Assembly (NCBI GenBank): GCA_000004985.1
Contig: GG738846.1
Source of the DNA: Naegleria gruberi
Lineage: Eukaryota
Direction: 5' to 3' (one strand)
Length of the DNA: 64,000 nt
The notes below the pieces were generated by a model. That model was not told where the DNA came from. It searched no databases and saw only the letters and a program-made list of their open reading frames with translations. Every line of letters begins with the position of its first letter. Positions within the stretch are counted from its first letter, which is position 1. Of the stretch, positions 194 through 56,454 are shown in pieces. Made by a program: the position numbers and the translations under genes.

Positions 194-3100
194 TCAATGC
201 TTTGATGAAGTTGTGGAAACATTAGAACTTGTACTCATTAGACTATCAGTACTGGCACTTGAAAGTCTTCGTCTTGATATCAAATCATTTGAATCGGCAT
301 TTCCATTAGAAAAGACTTCCATTAGACTTTGTAAACGTGGTGAAACAGCTGCTGGTTTGATTTGTTGAGTTTGAAGATTATTGGATTGACCATCTGTTTG
401 TTCATTTCTTTCGAATACTTGAGCTAAAAGACCAATCTTGGACATTTTCCTCTCGAATGGTGGTCTAGGAGATGTTTCTGTTGAAGAGCTAGTTGGACTA
501 CTGCTAGTTCCAAAAGGTGATAAATCTGAATCCAAATTCGTATTTGACATTGCAGAGTTTGGTGTTGTTAAGCTGCTTGAATTTATCAAATCAAAGATAG
601 ATTCTGTGAATTTGGACTTGTTGGAGAGGAGGAAACTGGCACCAACACTTCCACTGGCCATTGAAGCATTGGCAGCTGTTTTCCTTCTTGAAGACATAAC
701 CAAATTCTGATAAGCTTCAGTATTGGTGAATCTACTGTATGTATCGAATAATACCATTTCAACTTCCTTGTTTAGTCTGTCGAATAAATCGAGAGGAAGT
801 TTAACAAATGTTTCATCTTCACCTTTAGTTCTGAAAATTTGTCTTGCAGCTGTGGAAATTAGACGCTTGTTCACATTGACTTCTGAAGGAGAATCAGAAA
901 CAAGAAACTTATCATACATTTTCTGAGCGAATTTCCATCTTGCCTCCATATCTGTAATTGTTTTATACTTCTCGACATGATCGTAAAACTCAATATTTTC
1001 AGTACTGCACTCAATTTCTGAAAATGCACGAAGGTAGGATCTATAGTTGGTATTTCTCAATACCTCCTCGAAAGAAATTGGTTTAGAGGTGTCATTACCA
1101 ACAAATTGTTCAAACATCAAACAATTACTTGAAAAGTCAACTGGAGAATAGATAACTTGGAAGGCAAGGATTGGGAAATTTTGTAAATTGTTTACAGGAA
1201 GATTGGCATAATAGTCTAATTGCGTTTCGGTAATATTTGATTTTTTCAACAATTCAAAGAATGGAGCTTGATTGGATTTTCTTAGATGTTTGAGAATAAA
1301 ATTCAACACTCCAAATATTGAACCATTCACAGGACTGAAATCTTCCTTGTATTGGTGGAATAATGCTGGTAATTCAATGGAACTTTCTGTGCAAGCAAAG
1401 TTTTCATTGATATATCGTTTAGTACTTGACTCGATAATTCTTTCCATTGTTAATTGATCTATAGCTTGTGGTAAAGGGCTTGATTTTCTTCCGTCGGATA
1501 TTATGAAATGTATTCTTGGATCGAATTGGGATGAGAATGAGTCGTATGAATATTGCTTCTCCAGGAAATTTAGTTGATACTCTCTGAGATAGAACTTCCA
1601 TTCAGGTAACTGCTGTTCTCTCAAAATATAGTTCATGATATCGGACATACTGAGCTTATATCGACCAATAAGATAATTTGGTTCATTATAGAATTTTTCA
1701 TATTCTTCTTCAATGGCAATATACTTCTTTTCACAAAATGCGTGTGCTAACATTAAATTATGCAAATTGATAAAGAAACTCTTCTTTTGATTTCTATCCA
1801 GTTTGATCGGGTCAAAGTTTCTGAGCATGCTCGTGTATCTAATGGTTAGCTTGTAATTTTCCGATTGCTTGAATGAATAGTAGTCGATAGCTTGTTCAGA
1901 AACTAAAAAGTATTCCTTCTGTATAATTGCCATTAAATTTTCCAAAATAATCAATAATTTGATAGTATAGGTTGGAGCATCCAGTAAGAATGCACTATCT
2001 TGCGGTATTGAAATGGCATTAATTGCCTCTAATGGTACACTTCCTTTGTGGAATAGATTTGATATAAGCTCTCCCTCAGATAGGAGAGATGCCTTCTTCT
2101 TTTCTGGAATCACGTTGAGTATTTGACCGTTGTAAAATACAGGATTATCATTATCAACATATCTGTAAATGGTATTTGGTGAAAATTCCAAGTATTCGTA
2201 GGCGTTATATGGTACAGGTGATAAAAGTACAAGATTATTTGAAATGTCTCTACATCCATTAACATTCTTCCTCTGTGTATCCAAAATGAAAGATAATAAT
2301 TCTACAATATCAGTATCTGTCAAGTAACCTTGAGCTTTTTTCTTTAAATAATTGAAAATACTCTCACCATCTACAGTTAGTTTTATCTTTTCTATATGGA
2401 TAACGTTAGTTTCTTCTACAATAGTATCCCTCCTCTCTGGTTCTTGATTCAATTGGGTATACCGTCTAGTTTCTGGCCTTCTTCTTTCGAATTCAGATCT
2501 AGTTGTACTGGATGACGTCCTAGCATGGCCTTGATGAGTGCCAATTGATAAAATCTTGTTCAATTTTTGTTTGAAATTATTTTCCTCCAACTCAAGCCAA
2601 TTGGATCGAGTATAAATAATCTTATTAACACTCGGTGGACACTCAGATTTCATTTCATTCACTAATTTCCACATGTCTGAGTATTTCAAACCATCTGGCA
2701 GTAAATAGTTATGTGTCTCGTGTTCAAATAAAGGATTACAAAATTCCTCAAACTCTGTTTCCAAATTGACATTGATTTTAAATTCCTCTTCCAAGACACT
2801 TTCTTGCCATTCTTTACTTGTCAAAGTGGCCGTTATTGGATTAGTACTAACTGGTTGATTGCCATGCTTGATACTCATTCTCTTCAGTGTACCAGAAGCT
2901 CGAGATGATTTTCGCTTTTCTGCCTTCTTTTGAAGTGAAAAAGTTGAAGTTGTTGAGAGAGGATCTTTCAGTTTGGTAATTTTGTGTTTCATAAATTGTT
3001 GTAATTCTCTCTGGGCTGTTTGTGTTCTACAGAGACCACTCAAGCTCAGTGGATTAATAACCTCAGTCCACGAATCGGCAGGTGTTAAACTATCCAAATG

Positions 3101-4087
3101 TGAAACAAATTTTGAATCTTCTCTCGGTTTGCCATAGTGACATGTGTGATAAAACATGAGTAAATGATCTGGAATTTCTTCTTCAATTTCACAGAGTGGA
3201 TTGACAAAGTCATTAATTTCCTCTTCAAAGAGAGGATTCGAATAATTTATCCACACTCGCTCATTTTCACTATCATTCTTATAGGAAGAACTTTCCAATC
3301 GACTCACTTGATTCTTATCTATCAGAATATCCTTCAACGTCAGCAGTGAATTGTTATTATTATTATTATTATTTGTGGCCAACTTTGAACTACTATTTCT
3401 TTCATTATCATCATCATCATTTGCAACAATACCAAAATCATGAACATCATTCGATAGTGTTGAATTAGTGGAAGATTCGGTTTTTTGTTCAGTGGAATTC
3501 AGCTCAAATTCAAAGTCATCACTATCCAAATCAATTCTCCTCTGCACATAGTCATGTTCCTCATCGAGGTCCTTTCTAAATCTCACTAGAAAGATGGCAC
3601 ATGCTCCCGAAAAATCCCTCTTCATTAATTTACACTGTTCATGATGAAGTTTGGATGGTAAAATTTGATGTGAAATGTGTTGCTTCTTATTGTAGGCTCT
3701 ATTTCTATTGTAGCCGTCAATTGTATTCAACATGAGAGAATCTGATGAACTATCGAATGTAAAGGAGGAGGAAAAAGTCGATCGATTACTTGTACCAACA
3801 CCACTCAAAACACTACTACTCGTATTTTGATCATTCGATGATGAAGAGAGGGTATTATCCTGACATTCGTCGTTATGCATTGAGTCATCAAAATTATTTT
3901 CTTCGCAAATTGATAATGTCGATGATACTGATGTTGAAATAATATCATGTGATGATGATAGGGCGCTACTACAAATAATGATCGTATTGTTGTTTAGACT
4001 ATTGATAGTATCGGTCATTGCAATTTTCTTGTTTGTTTTTGTTACAAGACGACGACGACGATGATTCTGAAGTGCAAGAGTCAGCAA
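194..4087 (-). CDS. RGS-domain protein (regulator of G-protein signalling domain at C-terminus), Asn/Ser-rich, 1297 aa
   Basis: Single uninterrupted 1297-codon ORF. The last ~130 aa match the RGS consensus (FEEVLRNTNYRSYLRAFSEIECSTENIEFY ... KFAQKMYDKFL ... EVNVN ... VLFDTYSRFTNTEAY). There is a poly-N tract (NNNNNNNN) and S/T-rich low complexity. No other domain recognised. Confidence 0.6.
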   Translation of the reverse strand: MLTLALQNHRRRRLVTKTNKKIAMTDTINSLNNNTIIICSSALSSSHDIISTSVSSTLSICEENNFDDSMHNDECQDNTLSSSSNDQNTSSSVLSGVGTSNRSTFSSSFTFDSSSDSLMLNTIDGYNRNRAYNKKQHISHQILPSKLHHEQCKLMKRDFSGACAIFLVRFRKDLDEEHDYVQRRIDLDSDDFEFELNSTEQKTESSTNSTLSNDVHDFGIVANDDDDNERNSSSKLATNNNNNNNNSLLTLKDILIDKNQVSRLESSSYKNDSENERVWINYSNPLFEEEINDFVNPLCEIEEEIPDHLLMFYHTCHYGKPREDSKFVSHLDSLTPADSWTEVINPLSLSGLCRTQTAQRELQQFMKHKITKLKDPLSTTSTFSLQKKAEKRKSSRASGTLKRMSIKHGNQPVSTNPITATLTSKEWQESVLEEEFKINVNLETEFEEFCNPLFEHETHNYLLPDGLKYSDMWKLVNEMKSECPPSVNKIIYTRSNWLELEENNFKQKLNKILSIGTHQGHARTSSSTTRSEFERRRPETRRYTQLNQEPERRDTIVEETNVIHIEKIKLTVDGESIFNYLKKKAQGYLTDTDIVELLSFILDTQRKNVNGCRDISNNLVLLSPVPYNAYEYLEFSPNTIYRYVDNDNPVFYNGQILNVIPEKKKASLLSEGELISNLFHKGSVPLEAINAISIPQDSAFLLDAPTYTIKLLIILENLMAIIQKEYFLVSEQAIDYYSFKQSENYKLTIRYTSMLRNFDPIKLDRNQKKSFFINLHNLMLAHAFCEKKYIAIEEEYEKFYNEPNYLIGRYKLSMSDIMNYILREQQLPEWKFYLREYQLNFLEKQYSYDSFSSQFDPRIHFIISDGRKSSPLPQAIDQLTMERIIESSTKRYINENFACTESSIELPALFHQYKEDFSPVNGSIFGVLNFILKHLRKSNQAPFFELLKKSNITETQLDYYANLPVNNLQNFPILAFQVIYSPVDFSSNCLMFEQFVGNDTSKPISFEEVLRNTNYRSYLRAFSEIECSTENIEFYDHVEKYKTITDMEARWKFAQKMYDKFLVSDSPSEVNVNKRLISTAARQIFRTKGEDETFVKLPLDLFDRLNKEVEMVLFDTYSRFTNTEAYQNLVMSSRRKTAANASMASGSVGASFLLSNKSKFTESIFDLINSSSLTTPNSAMSNTNLDSDLSPFGTSSSPTSSSTETSPRPPFERKMSKIGLLAQVFERNEQTDGQSNNLQTQQIKPAAVSPRLQSLMEVFSNGNADSNDLISRRRLSSASTDSLMSTSSNVSTTSSKH

Positions 4088-14643: not shown

Positions 14644-17600
14644 TTAAACCCATGTATTAAATGAATTATTGATTGTTCCATACGAAAGATCATCAAGATC
14701 AGCAAAGCCTTCTGTTTCTGTTGGATTTTCAGAAGAGCTTGGTTCTGAAGAAATCTTTTCGAATAAATCAGCAATTGTTCTTTCCCTGTCAGCATTAGTT
14801 TCATTGTAATAAACAAATTTACCAAACTTGTTCTTTCTTCTGTATCTTCTCCACAACCAGGCAATGACACCAACTGCAAAGAAAGCACCAATGAGTCCAA
14901 CCAAAAACAATGGAATTCCCAAGGCAATAGCAAGAACATCCAATGGCTCTGTTCTAATATTGGCAAGCAATGGAGTTGTCTTTTCAGCAACATCATACAA
15001 AGCAAATGAAGTGAGCGAATCAATTTGTGTTGTTGTAAGATTTTTACAGTTAAAAGCTTGACCAACAGACATTGTGTAATTAGTAAAATCATTCAATGTT
15101 GTCTTGTATGTAGCATCGCAAACTGTTCCCATAACATCGTGAACCAATTTAACAGTGTATTTTTGATCAGCATAGGTTAATCTGAATTCATAGGTTTCTC
15201 CAAGATCATACGTGCAAGGATCTGAAATTTCTGTATCATTGACATGAATTCTACGACCAGTTGCATCATAGCTTAATGATATAAAAAGATGATCAACCTT
15301 AGTGAACCAAACTTCAAACAAATTACCAGAAGTAAATTTGCTTGGAAGGATAATCTTGAAACTAATGATTTTGGAAATATCAAACTTCTTTGAAGATGAT
15401 ACATATTGTCTCAAAACTGGCATTTCAGAACATAATGAAGAATTAATAGTTGGTTTGAAAACCATTGCACTGCCATCTCTACTTTTAGGTAAATCAATCT
15501 TTGTAATGAGAGGAATACCAGCAGCTTGTGGTAACGCAGCAACAGTTTCAACATCTACACTAGTGGTACTAGTTGAGAAAATGCTGGAGGCGCTTTCTTC
15601 TTGAACAGATGGACTGACATATCTGAATCTTGTTTGAGTGGTTGAACTATAAACTCCACTCTCAATGGAAAGTTGAAGATCCAAAAGTACAGTTTCAATA
15701 TTGAGTTGAGGCATCTTGAATTTAATGCTTGATGAGGACACTTTTTGTGCATCAACATTAACATCAATGGATTCATCCTTATTTGATAATTTAACAAAAG
15801 CTGTATGTTCTGGAACGAAAACATCATTGATAACAATGTCATTACCAATATAACCCAAAACTGGACTCACATTATTGATACGATTGGAATAAACTGTGAA
15901 TTGGTTACCAGTATAGGGAACTTCAAGGAGAGGTTCTGCTGATGAAGATTTAAAGTCAACAATTTCAACCTTTGCATTCACTTGGAATGAATTCAAATCA
16001 GCTAATTGAGATGGCAAATTCTTCATTTCCTTAGTATTGACTTGATAAACACCATTGGTTGATGTCTTTTGAATGGAAAGTCTTTGAGTAAATACATTAT
16101 CAACACTGAAAATTAAATAAATTCCCAAAGTTGGTTTAAACGAAACATCAAGATTTCCTTCAAATGTAATTGTTGTACCACCTGAAACTGGTAAATAAAG
16201 CTTTGAGAATTTCTTAATATCAACACTGTATACAGGTGTTGTTTCAGCAACGAATGAGAAGGAAGATTCTGTGGAAGCAATCATTTTAGAAACACCTTGG
16301 AATGGATCCACTGTTGAAATACGTGTTAGCTCAACTGAAATGGATGTTGAATCTTCAGTGTTTGTCAATGTAATCTTATTGTTTTGAGTATCGATAATCA
16401 AATTTTCGACATTGGAAACTGAAAAGTCACCATCAGTATCAAGAGAAATAAAAGTAACATTTTCGGCTTTCAAACTTGGAATGACACCAACAATTTCAGT
16501 ACCATTTGTTCCTACATTGATCAAGAATTGTTCCTTAGTATCTGTATTTGCAACAGCCATAGAGAAAACAGTATTTTCAGTGAATGGAATGTTGACTGTT
16601 TCAATTGGGGTTGTGATGGTAGTTGATGTTAATGGAATAGTTGCCATGACATTCTTTCCATTATTATCTTCTACAATGAATGAATAGGTACTGGTATTGG
16701 TAATCGGATCAAATACAATATTACCTCCCAACAAGAACTTGGTATTAGTATTAATGGTTCCCAAATTATTAACAAGTTTTGCAGAATTAGAATCAAAGTC
16801 TAAAGAATAGAGCTGAGCTTGATTGGATATAGTTTCTGATGTAATGGCAAAGCTTTGATCTTCCTTATTGAATAATACTTTAGATTGTCCCAATGTTAAT
16901 CCACTTGTTGGTTGTTGATTTGTATCAAGAGTGGTTAACGTTTTCACAGTGGCATTGAATGAATTTTCTTGTAAACTAATTAAAGCAAAAACTAAACTAT
17001 CCTTTTGTTGCTTGTGAAGTGAAGGATCGAAACTCATAATCATAACTCCATTTGGACTCTTGGTAGTGGTAACCAATTCTTGAAGGGTTTGATTTTCAGG
17101 AATAACAACCTTATCCAACAATACTTGTGATTGCATGACAATAGTTTTACCACATTTAGCATCTACAAGAACCATTTCATAGACAAGTTGTTCATCAGTT
17201 ACAGTTGGACCAAAAGCTCTTGCAAATGAACCACTACATTGATCAGCAAATGTTGAGTATTGACATTTAGATCCTGTATGACCAGGATTACATTTACATG
17301 TATCAGGAGAAATACAAATACCATTACTACAGTTAACACTTCCAAAACAGAGTGGAAGTTCACATTGGAGTCCAACATAATTCTCACTGCATGAACAAGA
17401 ATTATTCGAAATGCAATTACCATTACCAGAACAAGCTAGTGAACTGTTTTGAGAAATTCCAAAACAGAAAATCTTTGGAGGTTCTTGACTTGGACTACTG
17501 TTATTATTATTGTTATTATTACTATTGGTATTGGAATTGTTTGTAGAATTATTGGAAGAGGAGGTATTTGTGGACTTGTAAGATTGAGTTATGGTTTGAA

Positions 17601-18742
17601 CAATGTTATTGATAACACTCATTTGAGATGTAATTGTTTGTTGGGTTGTATTACTTGTTAATAATTCAAAGAAAACGAGTTCACCAGTAAATGGATATGG
17701 ATTAGGAAGGTCATTGGTTCTACCAATCAAAATGTTATCAGAGTTTGGAATGGAAGATGTGTTATCTTGATAAACTACCTTACTATCCATGACAACTACC
17801 AAACCTGGATCAGTAAATTCAACTAAAAGTGATACTGGTTTGCTTTGCAATGAACTATTTGAATAGATAACCGTATTAGAACCAAGCAAAGAAAGACTAA
17901 CATTTTGAGAGTTCAAGAAGACTTTGAGACCAGTACCAATATCCAACAAGACTTGAGGATTGGAGGTTGTTGGTGTTGTGGATGGTTTGGCAACTAATGA
18001 AAGAACAAAGTTGTCAGTAAGTGGTGAAGCCAAATCCAATGAAACAAATGAATCACTGGAGAGCAATAAGGATGAGTTGGATGATGATGAGGTAGTGGTA
18101 CAGTTTTTAACAACTGCTAAACCAATCTTACAGTCACTTCCGTCCTTTGTAACAGACCAGGTGATATCTGGATTATTTGACGAATCTTGACTATTGGTGA
18201 TGCTTTGAACATTATTAATGACATTAACTAAAGTTTGATTATTGACATTATTGGTTAACAATTCGAAGAATGATAATTCACCGTTGAATGGATAAGTATT
18301 AAGTAAGTCATCAGATCTACCTATCAAGATGTTGTTAGAATTTGGAATTTGTGTTATGGCTGGATTTTGATATTTAGAATTTCCATCAACAAATACACTC
18401 AAACCTGGATCTGTGAATTGAACAACAAATGATGTGGCGTCAATATTATTTGGATTGGTTGTTGGATAAGTGCAAATAACTGTTTCAACACCATCGATAA
18501 CCAAAATGACATGTGGATATCTAATAATTACTTTGAGACCAGTACCGACATCCAATAACACTTGAGGATCAGAAGTGGTTGTTGAAGGTTTAGCAACAAC
18601 TGAAACAATAAAGCTATCAGTGAGAGGAGCGCTCAAATTCAAAGAAATGAATGACTCATTTGATAACATCAATGTAGAATTAGAAGCTGTTGCACAATTT
18701 TTAACAACTGCTTGTCCAATCTTACAGTCAGAACCATCCTTT
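14644..18742 (-). CDS. Giant adhesion-type membrane protein, C-terminal part (LamG-like modules, EGF-like repeats, beta-sandwich domains, TM helix, cytoplasmic tail)
   Basis: The frame continues the DGSDCKIGQ module directly from the upstream ORF. EGF-like Cys pattern: CSGNGNCISNNSCSCSENYVGLQCELPLCFGSVNCSNGICISPDTCKCNPGHTGSKCQ. Single TM (IALGIPLFLVGLIGAFFAVGVIAWLW) followed by a stop-transfer RRYRRKNK and a ~75-aa tail. The ORF-track N-terminus MQMLSLQHH... is out-of-frame read-through, not a real start. Confidence 0.6.
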
Positions 18743-21000
18743 AGTAATTGCCCAAACAACCTCTGTGTTGGTAGTATTTGACACCGGTGCTGGATTGCTT
18801 GGTGATGTTGAAGAGACAACATTTGCAACTGTGCTAATTACATTGGATAAAGTTTGATTGTTAACATTGTTAGTCAATAGTTCAAAGAATGATAATTCAC
18901 CATTGAAAGGATAAGCATTCAGTAAATCATCAGATCTTCCAATGAGAATATTGTCAGAATTTGGAATTTGTGAAATGACTGGGTTTTGATATTTAGAATT
19001 TCCATCAACAAATACACTCAAACCTGGGTCGGAGAATTTAACAACGAATGAGTTTGCATCAGGACTGCTTGGATTTGAGGTTGTTGGATAAGTGTAAATA
19101 ATTGTTTCAACACCATCTAGAACCAAAATAACATGTGGATATCTAATAATTACTTTGAGACCAGTACCGACATCCAATAACACTTGAGGATCAGAAGTGG
19201 TTGTTGAAGGTTTAGCAACAACTGAAACAATAAAGCTATCAGTGAGTGGAGCGCTCAAATTCAAAGAAATGAATGACTCATTTGATAACATCAATGTAGA
19301 ATTAGAACCTGTGGCACAATTTTTGACCACTGCTTGTCCAATCTTGCAGTCAGAACCATCCTTTGTAATAGCCCAAACAACCTCTGTGTTGGTAGTATTT
19401 GACACTGGTGCTGGATTGCTTGGTGATGTTGAAGAGACAACATTTGCAACTGTGCTAATTACATTGGATAAAGTTTGATTGTTAACATTGTTAGTCAATA
19501 GTTCAAAGAATGATAATTCACCATTGAAAGGATAAGCATTCAGTAAATCATCAGATCTTCCAATGAGAATATTGTCAGAATTTGGAATTTGTGANNNNNN
19601 NNNNNNNNNNNNNNNNNNNNNNNNNNNNNNNNNNNNNNNNNNNNNNNNNNNNNNNNNNNATGGATAACCATTAAGCAAGTCATCAGATCTACCAATGAGA
19701 ATACTATCAGAATTTGGAATTTGTGAAATGGCTGGATTTTGATATTTTGAATTTCCATCAACAAATAATGACAATCCAGGGTCTGTGAATTGAACAACGA
19801 AAGAGGTTGCAGCAAGATTTCTTGGATTTGAGGTTGTTGGATAAGTGTAAATAACAGTTTCCACGCCATTAACAATCAAAATAACATCAGGATATCTGAG
19901 AATGACTTTGAGATCACCAACATCCAATAAAACTTGGGTTACAGGACTAGTTGATAAAGGCTTTGCCACAACTGAAACGATAAAACTGTCAGTGAGTGGT
20001 GCACTTAAATTCAAGGAAATGAATGAATCATTGGAGAGTAACAAAGTAGAATTGGAAGCTGTTGCACAATTCTTTACCACTGCTTGTCCAATTTTACAAT
20101 CAGAACCATCTTTGGTGATTGCCCAAATAATTTCTGTATTTGTAACGTTTGATGAAGGAGTGTTAGTGGTTGTGTTTGTAGCAGTTGGGCTTGGAGTGTT
20201 GGTTGTTGAAGAAACTACACTTGATACAGTGTTGATAATGCTTGACAATGTTTGATTTGTTACATTATTTGTCAACAATTCAAAGAATGACAATTCACCA
20301 ATAAATGGATAAGCATGCAGTAAATCGTCAGATCTTCCAATCAAAATATTGTTAGAATTTGGAATTTGTGCAATGGTAGAGTTTTGATATCCCACTTGAT
20401 TATTCACGAGAACGGATAAACCAGGATCTGTGAATTGAACAATTACTGGCATTGGAGTAATAGAGTTTGGATCAGAAGGAAGAGTATATACTACATATTC
20501 CACACCATTAACAATCAAAATAACATATGGGAATCTTACAACAACCTTAAGGTCATTACCGATATCCAACAAAACTTGAGTTACAGGATTTGAAGATAAA
20601 GGCTTTACAACAACTGAAACAATAAAGCTATCAGTGAGTGGTTCATCCAAGCTCAAAGAAACAAATGATCCATTAGAAAGCAACAAGGTAGAGTTTGATG
20701 AGGTGGTACAATTTTGAACAATTGCCTGTCCAATCTTACAATTATTACCTTCTTTAGTAATAGACCACAAAACATCTGTTGGTTGTGTTGAAGCATCACT
20801 TATTGAAGGATGATATTGACTAGCAATAGCAGAAAATATAGCACTCAAATTATTGGAAGCACTTGGCAATACTGAGAATGATAACAAGTCACCACTGAAT
20901 GGATAAATAGGAGATGAAGGACTTCTTCCCACTAGGATATTACCAACATTTGAGGTGTCGAAAATGTCAGTGTTGTAAACAAGATTGGAACTCAAGAAAA
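17600..21000 (-). repeat. In-frame tandem repeat array, ~610-bp unit (one LamG-like module each), adjacent copies near-identical
   Basis: 18841..18993 is identical to 19451..19594 over at least 150 bp. The 610-bp period is also seen at ~18230 and ~20060. Outer copies are progressively more diverged. An assembly gap lies inside the array. Confidence 0.8.
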
Positions 21001-23650
21001 CTTTCAAATTTGTTCCATTCACAACCAGTGCAATAGAGAGTAGAGAATCACCATTGGAATGGGATCCAATGAGGATTTTATCATTACTGCTTGTAATCAA
21101 ATAAATGTTCGGAAGTTGAGTGACAATCATGGTATTGAAAAGTGAGACAACTACTTGTGTAATGTTATTGTAACCAGAATCTGGAAGAACTGTCACTAAA
21201 ACAGTGTATGAATTAGGCATTAAAGTGACAGAATAATTCAAGAATGAATTATTTGAGAGGTGTACAGTAGCATTGTCAACCATTTGACAATTAACAATCT
21301 TGACCTCAGATCCAATAACACAAGAACCATTCAATTTTTCAATAACCCATTCAATTGTCTTGTTGGATGGAAGGGCAATTGGTTCGGTAACACATGACTT
21401 GATGGTATATTGAGGTTCTTCTCTTTCAAGTATTAAATCACGAAGATTGAACTGTGAAGGTTGAAGCTCTGGTGCATTAGCTCCATAAAACATCATGTTA
21501 TACAAGAGATCGGAGGCTTGTTGTTCAATAACTGATTGTTCATCACAGAATTGCATTGGTTCAGTAGAAAATAATTCTGGTTCAGACATCCACCAATCAT
21601 ATTGCTCCTCCTCATCAATAGTCTCAGAGGTAGTTGTGGTAGAGTTTTGCACAGTCACACAATCATGAACATGATATTCAGCAAACAATGTTTCACCAGT
21701 TAAAATATCTTGTGTGAGTAAGCTAGTAGTCAATTGGTTAGCATCAACACCCAACATGAGACCATACAATAAATCATCAACTTCCTTTGTTTCTTTGGCT
21801 GCTTGGTCACATAAAACATATTGTTGCTCAGTAGCAGCGTCATCAGAAAGAGTCTCAAAAAGATAAACTCCTGAAATGGTCCAATCGAATTGAGGTGAGT
21901 CTAAAGTTTCTTCTACACTGGTTGTTGAGGTAGAGTTGGTTGTGTTGTTACCTTGGTTGATTGTGCATTCTTTGAGAATATATTGAATTTGTTCGATACC
22001 ACTAATTGAGGAAGTATCAACAAGATCAGTGAACAAACTTTGATAGTCAGAATTACCTAATTGCATTCTCAAAAGTGCATCATAGACTTGTTGATTATCC
22101 AATGATTCTTGATCACAAAATTCTTTCACCAAACTATCGGTACTATCACCATCATCCTCAAAAAGGAATGGACCGGTAATAAGCCAATTAAATGAATCAC
22201 CATCATCCTCTTGTGAAGCAACTTCTAATGGAGCAATTTGAGTGGTGTTTGTAACATTACTGACTATTGTTGGAACAGTGCAATCTTTGAGAACATATTC
22301 AATCTGTTCTACTGTACTAGTAATTGTGGAAATATCAACAAGTTCTGTAAACATGCTTTGATAGTCAGAATTACCCAATTGCATTCTCAAAAGTGAGTCG
22401 GCAAACTGTTGGGCATCCAAAGAAGCTTGATCACAAAATTCCTTCACCAAACCACCACCATTGCTACTACTACTCGTAGCATCATCGGCAGCGTCGAACA
22501 GATATGGACCAGTAATAAACCAATCAAATGAATCACCAACTTCTTGTGGGGAGGCAATGTCTAATGTTACAATTGGAGTGGTAGTATTGGTTGAATTGTT
22601 GACAATTGGTGTTGGTGGAACAGTACAATCTTTGAGAACATATTGAATTTGTCCAATGCCACTCAAAATTGAAGAAAGGTCAACAAGCTCAGTAAAAGAA
22701 CCCAAGTCAGAGCCTCCTAGAGCAGTTCTCAACAGTGAATCAGTAAGTTGTTGATCATCCAAAGAAGCCTGATCACAAAACTCTTTCACCTCAAAATCGC
22801 CACCACTGCTACTACTACTAGTAGCATCATCAGAGCCAAACAAATATGGTTCAATCAACCAAGCCAAAGAGCCATCATCTTGTTGAGTTGTTGCTGTTTC
22901 TGTTGTTGCTGAAACCATACCATCAACGCTAGTGGAAGCATAGCTTGTAGAGTTTGTTGCGTTTGAAGTTACATTAACAATTGGAACAGAACAATCAATA
23001 AGGGTATACTCTGGTTCTAAACCACTTATAATATCATCCAAATTAACATAACTCAACAAGTCAGATTCATAGGAGGAAGAGAATAACATTTTAAGGTACA
23101 TGTCTTCTTGTTGTTGAGCCTCCAAAGAAGCTTGATTACAGAAGGTAGTTGCTGCCTTTTCGAACAAATATCCATCTGCAATCATCCAACTGAAATCACT
23201 GGTAGAGGTAGTATCAATGGTGGTTGTACTTAAACTATCAGTGGTAGTAGTACCAGTAGTACTAGTATTAGATGTTGTTGTTGTTGTTACATTTAAAGTA
23301 GTAGTATTAGTTGTGATATTGGCAGGAATAGCAACTACTTCACATGCTGAATCCAACTTCAAGTAGTAAAATGATGTAGAGTCTATTAAGGATTGATAAT
23401 AATCAATATCTGTCTCATCCATTTGATTAACACAAGCCGTTCCATCAGAATTAACACTCATTCCTTCATCATCAAGAGCACTCCCAAGAATTAATTGTGT
23501 TAAAAAATCATCACCATCATCAGTGCCAAAAATTGAAGAAAGACTTTGTGCGTTTACCATGTTATTTTCATTAGGGGAGCCTGAAAACATTAATCCAGCT
23601 GCCCACATGACAACAAACGTTGTGAAGAGGAGAAGAAGCGATGTTTTCAT
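18743..23650 (-). CDS. Giant adhesion-type membrane protein, N-terminal part (signal peptide, 5-6 copies of a ~110-aa FCDQASLD..VLKDCTVP module, tandem LamG/ConA-like modules); it continues into 14644..18742 after a 1-nt frameshift
   Basis: Probable start at MKTSLLLLFTTFVVMWAAG (ATG 23650, signal peptide). Repeated modules VVWAITKDGSDCKIGQAVVKNC ... ILIGRSDDLLNAYPFNGELSFFELLTNNV, laminin-G-like. The frame is broken at ~18743 by one extra base relative to neighbouring repeat copies (attacTaaaggatgg versus attacaaaggatgg). A 65-N gap lies at 19595..19659. Confidence 0.6.
19595..19659. other. Assembly gap (65 N) inside the tandem repeat array
   Basis: Run of N. It is flanked by repeat-unit sequence on both sides, so copy number here is unresolved. 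Confidence 0.95.
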
Positions 23651-23940
23651 CGACTTGCTACTTCCTCCACGACGTTGAATACTACTGCTACACGACAATC
23701 GAGCTTGATTGTTCATGATGTGATGGTATTCGTGTGTTTTTTTCTTTGCTGAAGAGGCAAGATGTTGCGTGCTGTAAGCATAATCGTAAAACATGTCCTT
23801 AATAAGAACAAGGTAATCCTCAATATTTTCCGCATAGTTAATCCAAGATGGAACGTTCCAAATACGCTTGTGTCTAGAGTGTTATCTTGTCAATTAAGGC
23901 CTCATCCCTTTGTTTGTGATGATCATCAATTATTATTTGT

Positions 23941-26900
23941 TTATTCACAACTTGGAGAGGTGGTGTACGAAAGTACATTCATTTCCTTTTGGAATTTAAA
24001 GGTTTCTCGCCACTTGACAAATTCATCTTTGAGAATTAGTCTTTGGAAAATATCGAGATTATTCTTGACCACTTCATATTGAATTTCCTTAAATACAGAA
24101 TATGGCAAGAGACCATCTGGATTGAGTGTTAAATTTGTCATGGCATTGGCAAAATCAGTATAGCATCGAGCAGGCAAGTTGATTGGGTATGGTGATGTTG
24201 GTGCAAAATATGTAGCATGTAAATAAGTTACATAGTCCAAGTCCAAGGTTCCAGTTTGTCTCACTTTTTCCAAATCCTCATAGAGATTAAAGTTTTCAAT
24301 TGAGAATTCGTTATTGGAATAATTTCGGTGAAGCCATCTAAAATTAATATCTGTCAAATATTCTTCCCATTGAGCTTCCAATCTCTCAAAATCATCCAAT
24401 GGTTGATTATCACCAACACAAGTATCTCTGAGCTTTCTAATGTATGTTGCAATATCAACTATCATAACATTACCACCAACAAGTAACAAGCTACATAAGA
24501 AGAAGGCCACAAGACACAATCTATTAACAACCAATGAATTCCAAATGAACAGATCAAGAATGAGTACAATGCAGGTAACGAACATTGCTGCCAACGTGAA
24601 AATATCAATTCTGAGATAGAAAGGATCATCAAACAAGAAATAGTGTCTGAAACCCTTGTCCTTGATTGTCCTAATGTTCAGTATCATGTCAACCACAAAT
24701 ACAAGCATTACCACAACACTCAAAAAGCCAAACTGTGAAGCCAACGACAATAGGGATGCATCAAACTGTAAAGACCACTCGAATCTTTTGAATCGTTGAA
24801 TAACAACACCATAGAGAATTCCATAGTAAACTCCATACCAAATTCCTGCAAGAACCAAGCTCAGTGTAACAGAAACCATGAAGGAAATCTCTGGTCTCGA
24901 CACAATTCTGTAAAGTTTCATTCTACTTGTGTGAGATTTGTTTTCTCGTTTGATTGGAGAGAACTCTCTCAATTGATACAAGTTTCTCAATAAGAAGAAT
25001 CTAATAGTCACCACAATATAGCTCGAACACAACAGTGAAATGCAATAGTCTGGAACTGGTATCAGCGCAAATAAGGACATGCCAACATTCTTGAATACAC
25101 TCATCAAGATTGGTTCTAAAAAGAATAGACAAGTGAATATAATGCACATTGGAGCAATAAAAGGAACAAACAATCTTCTTCTCATTGCCTTATTATTATC
25201 AATCATGATACTGTAATTTACAACAAGTCCAATATAGAAAACCAAACATAAAATAATGACAAGGAATAACATGGCATCCTTATAGGTGAGATCCCAGTAT
25301 TTGGTTGGATTGTTATAGTGGAAAACACCCAAGTATTGATTATAAGAGCTGTAGCAGCTTGGACGAGCAATATCTTGGTAAACCAGCTCGGAAACTGAAA
25401 TATTTCTATTGTGTTCATTTGTAAATAGCCTAAACATTGTATGATCAAATTCAGTAAGAGGAAGCGATAGAGATGATGCTTGGAAACTACTATATCCCTC
25501 ACTGAATGTGGTTGAAATACGTGGAATTTCGAAAAGGTAACTATGATAGTCCTTTACAGATATAGTATCAAAAATTGAACAATTAATGGTACCATTAGTC
25601 CATAAATTGACAATGGAGAAGGACTCATTGAAGACAGAGTAAATTTCTTTAAAAACAGCAGCCTTGACCTTGTTGAAGGTATCCTCACTCTTGAGAGTTG
25701 CAACACGAACCGATCTTGGAATTGTCTTGAGCTTTGTTGGAATATTTGTTGTGAATATTTGTGCATAGTCAGATGTTTTCATATTATCAAGCTCAGATAT
25801 AGACCTTGGATCTAGGGTTTCATTCCTATCTAAAAAGTAAATATTATTCTTAATTGCCAATAGCATTGTGTCAACTTCTTCTGGTGTTACAAGAATCAAA
25901 TCACAAGAGCTGTACCAGTTTCTATTGAGGAATGAGTCGTGGCCCATAATAGGTTCATAATTTGTAATACTCAAAGAGTCACTCGTTGAGGTTTTGGTAT
26001 CAATATACTGATATTCTCTATTGCCATCCTTAAGGGTAATACCAACAACAGATTTAGATGCTCGAATAGTAAGATTTCTGACAGCCTGATCACAACAAGT
26101 GCAAATACGTGCAGTTTTCAAAAGTTGGAAGGTAAAGTTTGAAGTTTTAAATTTAGGAACTATTCCAACCAAATTATGATAGTAAAACACAACCACTTGA
26201 TTACTCATCTTGATAATGTTTGTCGATCCATCAATTTGGTACAAATCAGAATTGTCATTAATAAATTCATTCATACTGGTTGTATTGAGCAAGTTGACAT
26301 TTCCAATTTCAAATGTGGATTCATCGAAAGAACCAGTCTGATCATACAGAGGAACTAGTTTGGAAAAATCTCTTAAAATTGTATTGGATTGGAAAAGATT
26401 TTTGTAGGAAGAAACATAGAGGCCTACATTAACATCAACTCTAGAGGTTTGTGTTCCTTCTTGAACACTTCTTTTCTGTTGGGCAACATGTCTGGTATTC
26501 TGTGAAGAAAGGTTATTAATGATGGTTGAAGGAGCTCTTGCATCGATACCATTGTTAACTTGCTTTTCATACATGCAACTCAGATAAGCATTCAATGGAA
26601 TTGAGCATTTACCATTCAGTGGGGAGAAGATTGACGATTTGGTGTCAATAATAGGAATAGGCTTATTTTGAACTGGTTGGAGTGGGTGTGAATAATAGAT
26701 TGAGGACAACATGCCATAATTCATCGAACAAATAGACAAATCCATCAATTTGCTCATACAGAAATCAATACAGACCCTTCTCTGTTCACTACTACATGCA
26801 CAATATGAATACTTTGGGCATGGGAAAATGTCATAATCGACAGTGTCTCCACAAGTAATTTCAGATGGTAAATCAGTACAAGTGCCTGAGGTTGTATTAC

Positions 26901-28062
26901 AATAGCTCGAGTAGCAATCAGTGTTGTCTACACATGATTCGCCATTATAGTTACCAAATAATCTCAAACATTTTGAGTTTTCACATCTGACTGGTTGATT
27001 TCCAGGCCACTTTCCAGTGTCAAGATTTTGCTTTAGTGAAATACCACTACTTTCCAGACCTCCTATACAATCTGTATAAATAGAGCAATTGCTAGTGGTA
27101 TAATTCTTACAGATCAGAATTGTATTAGAGTATTCAACTGGGACAGGATTCAAATCGTCACTACATTTGCCAAAGATTGGTTTAGAATTAGGATTATAAT
27201 AATCTGGGAATGAGAAACTTGGCAGACAAACACCATTACAAGTAGAAGCAGCTGGGCATTTCTTGTAGACTGTAATAGGATTACCCTCTTCATCCTCAAT
27301 GTTGGCAAGTCCACAACTTTCATACAGGACAACATCAACTCTTCTCAAACATTTCTTTGTTGCAGCTAGGACAGATGGTAGATGGCAATAACTTGAACTA
27401 TCACAATTATCATAACTATTGGTAGTATAATTAACCAATGCCTTATCAAGTAAACTTTCAAAATCTGAATCTGGAGCGAATGGACAAGTGCTTCCTTCAG
27501 GAAGAACAGGATTTTCCTGTAAATAGCTACACTTTCCAGCATGACAATTCACAAAAGGATTAGTGACATGTCCATAACAATTCATACGATCAGTACAAGT
27601 GTCATTAATCATTCTTGTTTGAACATAGGTACACTTGAGAGTAGTTGGAGAGCAAGCCAAGTAAGGCAGTACACAATTTGTTTCATCAGCCCATGGTTGG
27701 GATGGATCATAGAAAGGATCACCATAAGGAATTACACAACTCTTCGTATCAACAGTTTCTAACAAGAATTCGTCCAATGGCTTACAAGAGAAAGCTCCAC
27801 TAATCGAATCTGTCATTCTAACATAACCAAACGGACACATGTTACCAAAGAGATAGAAATCATTGTACACATTTGTTGATATGTTTACATTATAGAAGGG
27901 AATGATGGAAGTTGTGGCCACTGAACAAACATCTAATTGTGCAAGAGTAGTACCTGAATTGCAAATGATGAATAGTAATATAAATAATACCACTAAAAGA
28001 AGAGCACGATGATTACTCTTCAATGATGATGAAGAAGAAGATGATGAAACATCCATTTTCAT
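23941..28062 (-). CDS. Receptor-like protein: signal peptide, ~800-aa Cys-rich ectodomain, seven TM helices, C-terminal RGS-like domain (7TM-RGS architecture)
   Basis: 1373-aa ORF. N-terminal hydrophobic leader (LLLVVLFILLFIICNS) and many Cys in the first 800 aa. Seven hydrophobic segments between ~aa 870 and 1160 (DAMLFLVIILCLVFYIGLVV ... LCLVAFFLCSLLLVGGNVMIV). The C-terminal 130 aa match the RGS profile (FSIENFNLYEDLEKVR ... YLHATYFAPTSPYPINL ... FKEIQYEVVKNNLDIFQRLILKDEFVKW). Confidence 0.6.
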   Translation of the reverse strand: MKMDVSSSSSSSSLKSNHRALLLVVLFILLFIICNSGTTLAQLDVCSVATTSIIPFYNVNISTNVYNDFYLFGNMCPFGYVRMTDSISGAFSCKPLDEFLLETVDTKSCVIPYGDPFYDPSQPWADETNCVLPYLACSPTTLKCTYVQTRMINDTCTDRMNCYGHVTNPFVNCHAGKCSYLQENPVLPEGSTCPFAPDSDFESLLDKALVNYTTNSYDNCDSSSYCHLPSVLAATKKCLRRVDVVLYESCGLANIEDEEGNPITVYKKCPAASTCNGVCLPSFSFPDYYNPNSKPIFGKCSDDLNPVPVEYSNTILICKNYTTSNCSIYTDCIGGLESSGISLKQNLDTGKWPGNQPVRCENSKCLRLFGNYNGESCVDNTDCYSSYCNTTSGTCTDLPSEITCGDTVDYDIFPCPKYSYCACSSEQRRVCIDFCMSKLMDLSICSMNYGMLSSIYYSHPLQPVQNKPIPIIDTKSSIFSPLNGKCSIPLNAYLSCMYEKQVNNGIDARAPSTIINNLSSQNTRHVAQQKRSVQEGTQTSRVDVNVGLYVSSYKNLFQSNTILRDFSKLVPLYDQTGSFDESTFEIGNVNLLNTTSMNEFINDNSDLYQIDGSTNIIKMSNQVVVFYYHNLVGIVPKFKTSNFTFQLLKTARICTCCDQAVRNLTIRASKSVVGITLKDGNREYQYIDTKTSTSDSLSITNYEPIMGHDSFLNRNWYSSCDLILVTPEEVDTMLLAIKNNIYFLDRNETLDPRSISELDNMKTSDYAQIFTTNIPTKLKTIPRSVRVATLKSEDTFNKVKAAVFKEIYSVFNESFSIVNLWTNGTINCSIFDTISVKDYHSYLFEIPRISTTFSEGYSSFQASSLSLPLTEFDHTMFRLFTNEHNRNISVSELVYQDIARPSCYSSYNQYLGVFHYNNPTKYWDLTYKDAMLFLVIILCLVFYIGLVVNYSIMIDNNKAMRRRLFVPFIAPMCIIFTCLFFLEPILMSVFKNVGMSLFALIPVPDYCISLLCSSYIVVTIRFFLLRNLYQLREFSPIKRENKSHTSRMKLYRIVSRPEISFMVSVTLSLVLAGIWYGVYYGILYGVVIQRFKRFEWSLQFDASLLSLASQFGFLSVVVMLVFVVDMILNIRTIKDKGFRHYFLFDDPFYLRIDIFTLAAMFVTCIVLILDLFIWNSLVVNRLCLVAFFLCSLLLVGGNVMIVDIATYIRKLRDTCVGDNQPLDDFERLEAQWEEYLTDINFRWLHRNYSNNEFSIENFNLYEDLEKVRQTGTLDLDYVTYLHATYFAPTSPYPINLPARCYTDFANAMTNLTLNPDGLLPYSVFKEIQYEVVKNNLDIFQRLILKDEFVKWRETFKFQKEMNVLSYTTSPSCE

Positions 28063-55900: not shown

Positions 55901-56454
55901 CTATTTTCCTCTGCATTAAACAATTCGAAAAACAATTCATTATAGGAATAGGAAGAGACTCCAACAGCAGGAAAGGGAAATACTCGACGATTCTCCCTAT
56001 CCATTATGAGTCTGATAATAACTGAATCTGCTGGTGCCTTCTTTTTATGCACTTGTTTCAAGAAGGCATCCACTTGTGCCAGGTTGACACATGGATTTTC
56101 AATGGTGGTACAATTCTTTGGATCCGTGGTAGGATTACTCAGTGCAGATGTAGATGATCGACTACTACTAGTAGTATGAACAGCAATCGGCTTGACATAT
56201 AAAACAGTTCCATTCACTGCTATATTATTATATATTTGAAAGATATTCTCGGAGGGCCATGAATAATTATAATAATAATATTCAGCATGATTATCATTAG
56301 CAACAATACTAGGATCATTATATTTACATTCTACCCAAAGATTGTGTGAAAAGGTGCAGAACAGTAAAATCTGCACAAAAAACAGAAACCTTGAGCGGGT
56401 AATTGATTGTTGTGGTTTGCACATTTTCTTTTTTGATGGGCAATTGATTTTCAA
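52928..56454 (-). CDS. Receptor-like protein kinase (TKL-type): signal peptide, ~700-aa ectodomain with parallel beta-helix-like repeats, TM helix, cytoplasmic kinase; 2 exons: complement(join(52928..53501,53558..56454))
   Basis: Ectodomain repeats NGGALYY / NSGGALYLE / NSGGCVYAT. TM segment IILYTVIPVSVIFGMLLTVVLLVAIFLLV. Kinase motifs IGEGGNGTIWLGKW...VALKSL, HPSIVKLYGVC, then IVHR|DLKPGNILL split by a 56-bp intron GTTTGT..tttaatag (53502..53557, phase 2), CDFGLSK, DVYSFGIIMWELF. Confidence 0.8.

What the first reader, a model, noticed from the sequence alone, without database searches (positions are those of the whole stretch)
23941..28062. Self-contained receptor-GAP: large Cys-rich ectodomain + 7TM + C-terminal RGS domain
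Seven clear hydrophobic helices are followed directly by a ~130-aa region matching the RGS profile. This places a G-alpha GTPase-activating domain on a heptahelical receptor, the 7TM-RGS principle best known from plant AtRGS1 and some fungal GprK-type proteins. Here it is preceded by an unusually large (~800 aa) Cys-rich extracellular region, suggesting ligand-regulated GAP activity. A second, unrelated RGS-domain protein sits at 194..4087 in the same window.
Basis: partly seen in the sequence, partly recalled or inferred. Interest (0 to 1): 0.5.

Follow-up and report, generated by a model that had tools for sequence, protein, structure and literature searches.

The report
Naegleria seven-helix receptor carrying RGS domain
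This is an intact Naegleria gruberi gene for a cell-surface protein with a large cysteine-rich outer domain, seven membrane helices and an internal RGS domain that probably switches off G proteins. It belongs to a receptor class already described in Naegleria, so it is real but not a new principle.

Summary
A single 1373-aa ORF on the minus strand (23941..28062) is identical to N. gruberi NAEGRDRAFT_77883, which UniRef names "RGS domain-containing protein".

- **Architecture:** signal peptide, ~880-aa ectodomain (Cys-rich only in its first ~460 aa), seven TM helices (residues 925-1203), then a C-terminal RGS domain (~1224-1360).
- **RGS evidence:** alone it scores below Pfam's cutoff (19.6 vs 23.9 bits). 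The family evidence is solid:
  - 41 of 53 relatives hit Pfam RGS.
  - The family profile hits solved RGS10/17/7/4 (best E 2e-9).
  - The Gα-contact residues are conserved.
- **Topology:** the positive-inside rule puts the RGS domain in the cytosol.
- **Ectodomain:** it matches nothing known, and no GPS/GAIN was detected. 42 of its 44 cysteines are conserved in at least six of eight Naegleria/Willaertia homologues.

The 7TM-RGS class with complex ectodomains is published for N. fowleri (28 genes, GAP activity shown), so this is a new member of a known kind. Its ligand and regulation are unknown.

The parts
23941..28062 (-). Complete single-exon CDS, 1373 aa plus stop. Equals N. gruberi NAEGRDRAFT_77883.
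   Evidence: ORF list. 100% identity over the full length to P0001.
27943..28062 (-). Residues 1-40: Ser-rich n-region, hydrophobic core ALLLVVLFILLFIIC, then ...TTL-A. Probable cleavable signal peptide.
   Evidence: Hydropathy peak 2.59 at residues 20-38. Reading it as a signal peptide is inferred from the sequence, since no dedicated predictor was available.
26575..27942 (-). Residues 41-496: Cys-rich extracellular region with 38 Cys and several C-x5-6-C-x3-13-C-x3-7-C modules.
   Evidence: Cys positions. Nearly all Cys are conserved in 8 Naegleria/Willaertia homologues. No Pfam hit at E<=10. The AF2 model is only partly confident here (pLDDT 50-83).
25291..26574 (-). Residues 497-924: Cys-poor membrane-proximal extracellular region. 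It contains a CxCC triplet (654-657), the invariant block EPIMGHDSFLNRNWY (703-717; nt 25912-25956) and the stalk motif CYSSYNQYLGVFHYN (903-917; nt 25312-25356).
   Evidence: Invariant columns in alignment A4. Coordinates. No Pfam hit, including GPS/GAIN. AF2 pLDDT is 20-48, so no fold can be assigned.
24454..25290 (-). Residues 925-1203: seven transmembrane helices with the GPCR-type fold. Family motifs are KRRL (ICL1), TIRFFLLRNLY (cytosolic end of TM3), FLFDDPFYLRID (ICL3/TM6) and GG in TM7.
23983..24393 (-). Residues 1224-1360: cytosolic RGS domain (Pfam envelope 1241-1333). Residues aligned to RGS4 Gα-contact positions are S1254, E1256, N1257, N1295, D1337 and R1341.

Best explanation
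The gene encodes a plasma-membrane receptor-GAP of the heterolobosean 7TM-RGS class.

**Proposed layout.** A signal peptide directs a disulfide-rich ~880-aa ectodomain to the outside. Seven GPCR-fold helices span the membrane. A canonical-type RGS domain sits in the cytosol about 20 residues after TM7.

**Proposed mechanism.** The RGS domain binds the switch regions of one or more of N. gruberi's many Gα subunits in the transition state and accelerates GTP hydrolysis, holding (possibly self-activating) Gα in the off state at the membrane. Binding of an unknown extracellular ligand or surface to the ectodomain would change the availability or orientation of the RGS domain, by conformational change, clustering or endocytosis as in AtRGS1, and so release or tighten that brake.

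**What is shown and what is inferred.**
- Shown here: the architecture, the topology by charge rule, RGS homology and predicted fold, conservation of contact residues, and conservation of the whole protein across Naegleria and Willaertia.
- Inferred from literature on N. fowleri paralogues: GAP activity.
- Inferred by analogy only: regulation by a ligand.
For: - The ORF is intact and identical to an annotated N. gruberi protein.
- There are 115 relatives in an exhaustive HMMER search, and most of the 45 top hits checked by hydropathy show an N-terminal hydrophobic segment, an ectodomain, six to eight TM segments and a C-terminal tail.
- 41/53 relatives hit Pfam RGS, best 2.2e-11.
- The family profile hits RGS10 at 2.1e-9, and RGS17, RGS7 and RGS4, across the whole RGS box.
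- E1256, N1257 and N1295 are invariant and S1254, D1337 and R1341 nearly invariant across 26 family members. They align with RGS10's KEFSEEN, QVN and DSYSR.
- K+R is 20 on the inside loops and proximal tail against 4 on the outside loops.
- 42 of 44 ectodomain Cys are conserved in at least 6 of 8 homologues.
- N. fowleri has 28 7TM RGS genes. The isolated RGS domains of the cloned members accelerate GTP hydrolysis on several Nf Gα subunits, including the self-activating Gα5 and Gα7 (PMC9283941).
Against: - The single-sequence RGS score is below Pfam's gathering threshold, and phmmer against PDB finds nothing. The domain is therefore divergent.
- RGS4 S164 is Ile here, and the α5-α6 region reads PINLP rather than EVN.
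- The four N. fowleri proteins tested biochemically are not the orthologues of this gene. None of their primer-encoded peptide sequences (N- or C-terminal) occurs among the relatives retrieved here.
- No ligand, no Gα partner and no expression data were obtained.
- The ectodomain fold could not be predicted (pLDDT 45).
- Topology rests on hydropathy, the charge rule and AF2, not on a dedicated predictor.
Confidence: 0.72

Rival explanations
1. The C-terminal domain is an RGS-homology scaffold without GAP activity, as in Axin, GRK2 and some sorting nexins. It would tether a Gα or another partner to the receptor rather than switching Gα off.
For: - The Pfam score is sub-threshold (19.6 bits).
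- There is no single-sequence PDB hit.
- Not all RGS domains are GAPs (PMC3971589).
Against: - The residues aligned to RGS4 S85/E87/N88/N128/D163/R167 are retained and are invariant or nearly invariant family-wide.
- Canonical GAP RGS domains (RGS4, RGS3, RGS10, RGS17) are the best structural and profile matches.
- The Naegleria 7TM RGS domains that were tested do have GAP activity.
Confidence: 0.12
2. The seven-helix core is a working GPCR that activates G proteins (GEF), and the fused RGS domain is a built-in timer. The protein would then be a bifunctional GEF-GAP rather than a pure receptor-GAP.
For: - The 7TM core has the GPCR fold.
- An invariant Arg lies near the cytosolic end of TM3 (R1021, within TIRFFLLRNLY), and ICL3 carries a strongly conserved block (FFDDPFYxRID). 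Both are positions where GPCRs contact G proteins.
- Canonical GPCRs and 7TM-RGS proteins coexist in several lineages (PMC3971589).
Against: - There is no sequence similarity to any GPCR family.
- The motifs are not DRY/NPxxY equivalents by any test run here.
- At least some Naegleria Gα subunits self-activate and need no GEF.
- AtRGS1, the best-studied 7TM-RGS protein, has no demonstrated GEF activity (own knowledge).
Confidence: 0.1
3. The ectodomain is an adhesion or structural surface module, and the 7TM segment is only a membrane anchor that keeps a constitutively active GAP at the cortex. There would be no ligand-dependent regulation.
For: - No ligand-binding domain of known type was recognised.
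- Ligand control of the Naegleria 7TM RGS proteins is explicitly stated to be undetermined (PMC9283941).
Against: - A single TM helix would suffice as an anchor, yet the seven-helix core carries the most conserved motifs in the family.
- The stalk just before TM1 is nearly invariant across genera, which suggests ectodomain-to-helix coupling.
Confidence: 0.05
4. The ORF is an annotation artefact or a decaying pseudogene.
For: The immediate upstream neighbour does carry a frameshift and an assembly gap.
Against: - The reading frame is open for 4.1 kb in a 35% GC genome.
- Full-length homologues at 30-48% identity, with conserved Cys and motifs, exist in N. lovaniensis, N. fowleri and Willaertia magna.
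Confidence: 0.01

Closest known systems
Naegleria fowleri 7TM RGS protein family (28 genes; Bosch, Jeck & Siderovski 2022, PMC9283941)
   Same: - Same genus and same order of parts: large complex extracellular N-terminus, seven TM helices, C-terminal RGS domain.
- N. fowleri proteins FDP41_000658, FDP41_001505 and FDP41_008317 are sequence relatives of the window protein.
- RGS domains of this class accelerate GTP hydrolysis on Nf Gα subunits.
   Different: - The members characterised there (Nf 7TM RGS1-4) carry EGF-like repeats, lectin domains and GPS motifs. The window protein shows none of these at sequence level.
- None of their primer-encoded peptide sequences is found among the retrieved relatives, so they are not its orthologues and may have a different 7TM lineage.
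- No member of this subfamily has been tested.
Arabidopsis AtRGS1 (plant 7TM-RGS)
   Same: - Seven TM helices followed by a cytosolic RGS domain in one polypeptide.
- A proposed receptor-GAP acting on a self-activating Gα (summarised in PMC9283941 and PMC8584482).
   Different: - AtRGS1 has essentially no ectodomain (own knowledge), whereas this protein has ~880 extracellular residues.
- All named relatives found by the exhaustive search are Naegleria or Willaertia, so no specific relationship of the 7TM cores is detectable.
- A direct comparison was not possible because AFDB libraries were unavailable.
Adhesion GPCRs (class B2, GAIN/GPS)
   Same: A very large modular ectodomain precedes a seven-helix core, and a conserved stalk lies immediately before TM1.
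   Different: - There is no GPS or GAIN match and no 7tm_2 match.
- The fold search shows no preference for class B.
- The cytosolic output is an RGS domain, not G-protein activation.
GPR158/GPR179 with RGS7-Gβ5 (mammalian class C orphans)
   Same: A seven-helix receptor with a large ectodomain positions an RGS GAP at the membrane. GPR158 and RGS7 both appear among the structural matches. That ligand binding to GPR158 modulates RGS7 activity is from my own knowledge.
   Different: There the RGS protein is a separate polypeptide recruited in trans, whereas here it is fused in cis. There is no sequence relationship.
Fungal GprK-type 7TM-RGS proteins
   Same: Chytrid fungi, filastereans and ichthyosporeans are also reported to have 7TM-RGS proteins (PMC3971589).
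   Different: They have short N-termini. No sequence relationship was detected in the searches run here, and no direct comparison was made.

Membership tests
RGS domain (Pfam PF00615) | Single-sequence score at or above Pfam's gathering threshold (23.9 bits) | tested here: not met
   19.6 bits for the full protein and 20.3 bits for the C-terminal 474 aa. E is about 1e-3, which is significant but sub-threshold.
RGS domain (Pfam PF00615) | Homology to bona fide RGS domains at family-profile level | tested here: met
   41/53 relatives hit PF00615, best 2.2e-11. The profile of 26 relatives hits solved RGS10 (2.1e-9), RGS17, RGS7, RGS4 and 31 other chains over the whole box. BLASTP to the 55.7-bit RGS domain of the protein at 194..4087 gives E 3e-5.
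RGS domain (Pfam PF00615) | All-helical RGS-box bundle fold | tested here: met
RGS domain (Pfam PF00615) | Gα switch-contact residues (RGS4 S85, E87, N88, N128, D163, R167) present | tested here: met
   S1254, E1256, N1257, N1295, D1337 and R1341. The mapping goes through the profile alignment to RGS10. RGS4 numbering is from my own knowledge. RGS4 S164 is Ile1338 here.
RGS domain (Pfam PF00615) | GTPase-accelerating activity on a Gα subunit | not testable with these tools
   Shown only for other Naegleria 7TM RGS domains (PMC9283941).
7TM-RGS receptor-GAP architecture (Naegleria 7TM RGS / AtRGS1 type) | Seven TM helices N-terminal to an RGS domain in one polypeptide | tested here: met
7TM-RGS receptor-GAP architecture (Naegleria 7TM RGS / AtRGS1 type) | RGS domain on the cytosolic face | tested here: met
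   An N-terminal signal-like segment plus an odd number of TM helices fits this topology. K+R is 4, 8 and 4 in ICL1-3 and 4 in the proximal tail, against 1, 3 and 0 in ECL1-3. This is an inference from the positive-inside rule. No dedicated predictor was run.
7TM-RGS receptor-GAP architecture (Naegleria 7TM RGS / AtRGS1 type) | Sequence membership in the heterolobosean 7TM-RGS family | tested here: met
   115 relatives, 48 of them at E<1e-10, spanning the 7TM and RGS parts together. Named ones are all N. gruberi, N. fowleri, N. lovaniensis or Willaertia magna.
7TM-RGS receptor-GAP architecture (Naegleria 7TM RGS / AtRGS1 type) | 7TM core homologous to that of AtRGS1 | not testable with these tools
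   No AtRGS1 sequence or structure was accessible, because afdb50 was unavailable. No plant protein was seen among the named hits.
GPCR seven-helix fold | Structural match to solved GPCR transmembrane domains | tested here: met
GPCR seven-helix fold | Assignment to a specific GPCR class (A, B, C, D, F, T, cAR) | tested here: inconclusive
Adhesion GPCR | GAIN domain with GPS motif immediately before TM1 | tested here: not met
   No GPS or GAIN Pfam hit at E<=10 in the ectodomain or at E<=0.01 in 53 relatives. The structural test is uninformative because the ectodomain model has pLDDT 45.

The most novel reading that the evidence does not exclude
The subfamily may use a non-GAIN, adhesion-GPCR-like mechanism. 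The nearly invariant stalk CYSSYNxYLGVFHYN, 8-22 residues before TM1, would act as a tethered element. The invariant ectodomain block EPIMGHxSFLNRNWY would be a cleavage or latch site. Ligand binding or mechanical pull on the Cys-rich ectodomain would then be relayed through a GPCR-fold core that carries its own conserved TM3 Arg and ICL3 DDPFY motifs, switching a fused GAP. That would be a mechanosensitive off-switch receptor, evolved independently of animal adhesion GPCRs and of plant AtRGS1.
Probability: 0.08. Interest if true: 0.6.

Novelty: new member of a known kind. Interest (0 to 1): 0.25.

Why it matters
Receptor-GAPs invert the usual GPCR logic, because the receptor holds a self-activating G protein off until a signal arrives. 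Naegleria has the largest known expansions of Gα and RGS genes: 229 RGS proteins in N. gruberi (PMC3971589) and 28 7TM RGS proteins in N. fowleri (PMC9283941).

This gene adds a well-conserved subfamily whose ~880-aa ectodomain and seven-helix core match no described family. It is a reasonable candidate for finding what such receptors sense. It also has orthologue-level relatives in the pathogen N. fowleri. It does not change the known principle.

Tried and rejected
1. The single-sequence word-index search found only the protein itself. Relatives appeared only with the exhaustive HMMER search.
2. Two profile-seeded word-index searches returned few proteins (14 and 5). The MSAs for structure prediction were therefore shallow, at 14 and 9 rows.
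3. phmmer of the full protein and of the C-terminal 170 aa against PDB gave no RGS hit.
4. Pfam at E<=10 on the 7TM segment and on the ectodomain gave nothing. NCBIfam gave nothing relevant.
5. AF2 of the ectodomain failed, with mean pLDDT 45. A Foldseek search with that model gave only noise, with E>0.8 and probability <=0.13. A GAIN-like or lectin-like fold can therefore be neither claimed nor excluded structurally.
6. The AFDB comparison, intended to test the relationship to AtRGS1, was unavailable.
7. Synteny with the closest N. fowleri relative showed no shared neighbours.
8. Matching to the four biochemically tested Nf 7TM RGS proteins through their primer-encoded peptide sequences (N- and C-terminal) gave no match among the retrieved relatives.
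9. Anantharaman 2011 and Bradford 2013 could not be read.
10. My initial guess of a dictyostelid origin from base composition was wrong. The window is N. gruberi.
Full report
**What is there**

The window has about 34% GC and long, mostly uninterrupted ORFs. The finding's coordinates, 23941..28062, hold one 1373-aa ORF on the minus strand. It is 100% identical to Naegleria gruberi NAEGRDRAFT_77883, labelled "hypothetical protein" by NCBI and "RGS domain-containing protein" by UniRef. The window is therefore N. gruberi nuclear DNA, and the gene is a single exon.

**Anatomy**

| Residues | Feature | Evidence |
|---|---|---|
| 1-40 | Ser-rich start, strongly hydrophobic core, small-residue end (…TTL-A): probable signal peptide | |
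| 41-496 | Cys-rich region, 38 cysteines | |
| 497-924 | Cys-poor region, 6 cysteines | |
| 925-1203 | Seven hydrophobic segments | |
| 1224-1360 | All-helical C-terminal domain | |

**Is the C-terminal domain an RGS domain?**

On its own the sequence scores 19.6 bits (E 0.0013) against Pfam RGS, below the 23.9-bit gathering cutoff. phmmer against all PDB chains finds no RGS protein. Taken alone, the match is only suggestive. Five independent lines make it firm:

1. An exhaustive HMMER scan of 1.84 billion representatives with residues 500-1373 found 115 relatives, 48 of them at E<1e-10. Most align across the seven helices and the C-terminal domain together. Of 53 of these scanned against Pfam, 41 hit RGS, best 2.2e-11.
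2. A profile of 26 trimmed relatives hits 35 distinct solved RGS chains across the whole RGS box. These include RGS10 (2.1e-9), RGS17, RGS7, RGS1, GAIP, RGS4 and EhRGS-RhoGEF.
3. BLASTP of the target's last 170 residues against the neighbouring protein at 194..4087 aligns exactly onto that protein's 55.7-bit Pfam RGS domain (E 3e-5).
5. The family's invariant or nearly invariant RGS positions fall on the motifs KEFSxEN, YEVNxP and DTxxRL. The profile alignment pairs these with RGS10's KEFSEEN, QVN and DSYSR. In the target these are S1254, E1256, N1257, N1295, D1337 and R1341. By my knowledge of the RGS4-Gαi1 structure, they correspond to S85, E87, N88, N128, D163 and R167, the residues that clamp switch I and II.

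Canonical GAP-type RGS domains rank above the non-GAP RH domains of Axin and sorting nexins in both the profile and fold searches.

**Seven helices and orientation**

No class can be assigned:
- Foldseek has no hit below E 1e-3, and classes A, B, C, D, F and T are interleaved.
- Sequence identity is 6-14%.
- Neither the target's 7TM segment (E<=10) nor any of 53 relatives (E<=0.01) hits a Pfam 7TM family.

Loop charges follow the positive-inside rule. K+R is 4, 8 and 4 in the loops after TM1, TM3 and TM5, and 4 in the first 25 tail residues, against 1, 3 and 0 in the alternate loops. Together with an N-terminal signal peptide and an odd helix count, this places the ectodomain outside and the RGS domain in the cytosol.

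**Family features**

The 7TM-RGS family has its own conserved signature:
- KRRLxxPY after TM1
- YxxTxxRFxYLRNLY at the cytosolic end of TM3 (Y1015 and R1021 invariant)
- NRKxIKxKGxxYFLFFDDPFYxRIDL between TM5 and TM6 (D1146 and P1147 invariant)
- GG in TM7

All relatives that carry a source name are from N. gruberi, N. fowleri, N. lovaniensis or Willaertia magna. The remainder are unnamed environmental contigs. This looks like a heterolobosean expansion.

**The ectodomain**

Eight long homologues (1188-1365 aa; N. lovaniensis ×4, N. fowleri ×2, Willaertia ×1, one unnamed) align over the whole ectodomain at 24-32% identity. Of its 44 cysteines, 42 are conserved in at least six of the eight homologues, as expected for a disulfide-bonded extracellular structure under selection.

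Two blocks stand out as invariant:
- EPIMGHxSFLNRNWY (residues 703-717)
- The stalk CYSSYNxYLGVFHYN (903-917), which ends 8 residues before TM1

No Pfam family is detected, including GPS, GAIN, EGF and lectins. The AF2 ectodomain model is unreliable (mean pLDDT 45), and a fold search with it returned only noise. The ectodomain's fold and ligand remain unknown.

**Comparison with what is known**

The principle is established and, more to the point, already described in this genus.
- Bosch, Jeck & Siderovski (2022, PMC9283941) report 28 seven-transmembrane RGS proteins in N. fowleri.
- Several have complex extracellular N-termini (EGF-like repeats, lectin domains, GPS motifs).
- The isolated RGS domains accelerate GTP hydrolysis on several Nf Gα subunits, including the self-activating Gα5 and Gα7, through a canonical interface.
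- They state that ligand control is undetermined.
- De Mendoza et al. (2014, PMC3971589) count 229 RGS proteins in N. gruberi and note 7TM-RGS architectures in many lineages.

N. fowleri relatives of the window protein exist (FDP41_000658 and others). They are not the four proteins tested biochemically.

Relative to AtRGS1 the architecture is the same. This protein, however, has a huge ectodomain, and no specific relationship of the helical cores could be tested because AFDB was unavailable. Relative to adhesion GPCRs, the defining GAIN/GPS feature was tested at sequence level and not met.

**Mechanism**

The most likely mechanism (about 0.7) is a membrane receptor-GAP. The cytosolic RGS domain accelerates GTP hydrolysis on one or more N. 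gruberi Gα subunits. The conserved ectodomain, stalk and seven-helix core provide a route by which an extracellular cue could modulate that activity.

- Shown here: architecture, topology by charge rule, RGS homology and predicted fold, and conservation.
- Inferred: GAP activity, from paralogues in N. fowleri.
- Inferred by analogy only: ligand regulation.

The rivals are a non-catalytic RGS scaffold (0.12), a bifunctional GEF-GAP receptor (0.10), a constitutive anchored GAP or adhesion protein (0.05), and an artefact or pseudogene (0.01).

**Verdict**

The finding is a new, uncharacterised member of a known and published class. Modest residual interest lies in the unassigned ectodomain and the lineage-specific 7TM family.

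Noticed in passing
window 14644..23794 (-), junction at 18721-18745, N-run at 19595-19659: The two large ORFs 14644..18828 and 18728..23794 appear to be one ~3,050-aa gene. It has an N-terminal hydrophobic (signal-like) segment, several repeats of a module about 200 aa long (…WAITKDGSDCKIGQAVVKNC…), teneurin-type EGF repeats and one C-terminal TM helix. A single extra G splits it: AAAGGATGG where other repeat copies read K-D-G. It also contains a 65-N assembly gap. This is either an assembly error in a repeat or a real frameshift.
   Followed up: partly
window 194..4087 (-): A soluble 1297-aa protein with DUF547 (80 bits) followed by a full-scoring RGS domain (55.7 bits, residues 1005-1129) and no TM segments. 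It is one of N. gruberi's many non-membrane RGS proteins. Its RGS domain aligns to the target's at E 3e-5.
   Followed up: partly
window 25912-25956 and 25312-25356 (-): Two ectodomain blocks are invariant across nine Naegleria/Willaertia homologues. They are EPIMGHxSFLNRNWY (residues 703-717) and the pre-TM1 stalk CYSSYNxYLGVFHYN (903-917). The stalk motif also occurs in shorter-ectodomain relatives (P0008-P0010). Their function is unknown, and a latch, cleavage site or tethered element is conceivable.
   Followed up: partly
window 24604-24639 and 24976-25008 (-): The family has its own cytosolic signatures in the seven-helix core. One is an invariant Arg near the inner end of TM3 (TIRFFLLRNLY). 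The other is an invariant DP in FLFDDPFYLRID between TM5 and TM6. These are positions where GPCRs usually contact G proteins. No known motif matches.
   Followed up: no
window 29221-30390 (+) and 37682-39061 (+): Genes for both subunits of general transcription factor TFIIE (the beta-type TFA2 winged helix and TFIIE alpha) lie about 7 kb apart on the same strand. HSP90 (31275-33053) and a G-patch/GCFC protein lie between them.
   Followed up: no
window 53494..56454 (-): A receptor-like kinase with an N-terminal hydrophobic segment, a Chlamydia-PMP-type repeat, one TM helix (~residue 760) and a protein kinase domain. The ORF covers only the first half of the kinase domain (profile 1-128 of 258), so an intron or a truncation follows.
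   Followed up: no
P0002 and P0118 (N. lovaniensis C9374_004501 and C9374_004496): The two closest N. lovaniensis relatives sit five locus tags apart on the same 663-kb contig, which suggests a recent local duplication. Only one N. gruberi member of this long-ectodomain subfamily was identified among the named hits. The closest N. fowleri relative (locus L001) shares no neighbouring genes with the window.
   Followed up: partly
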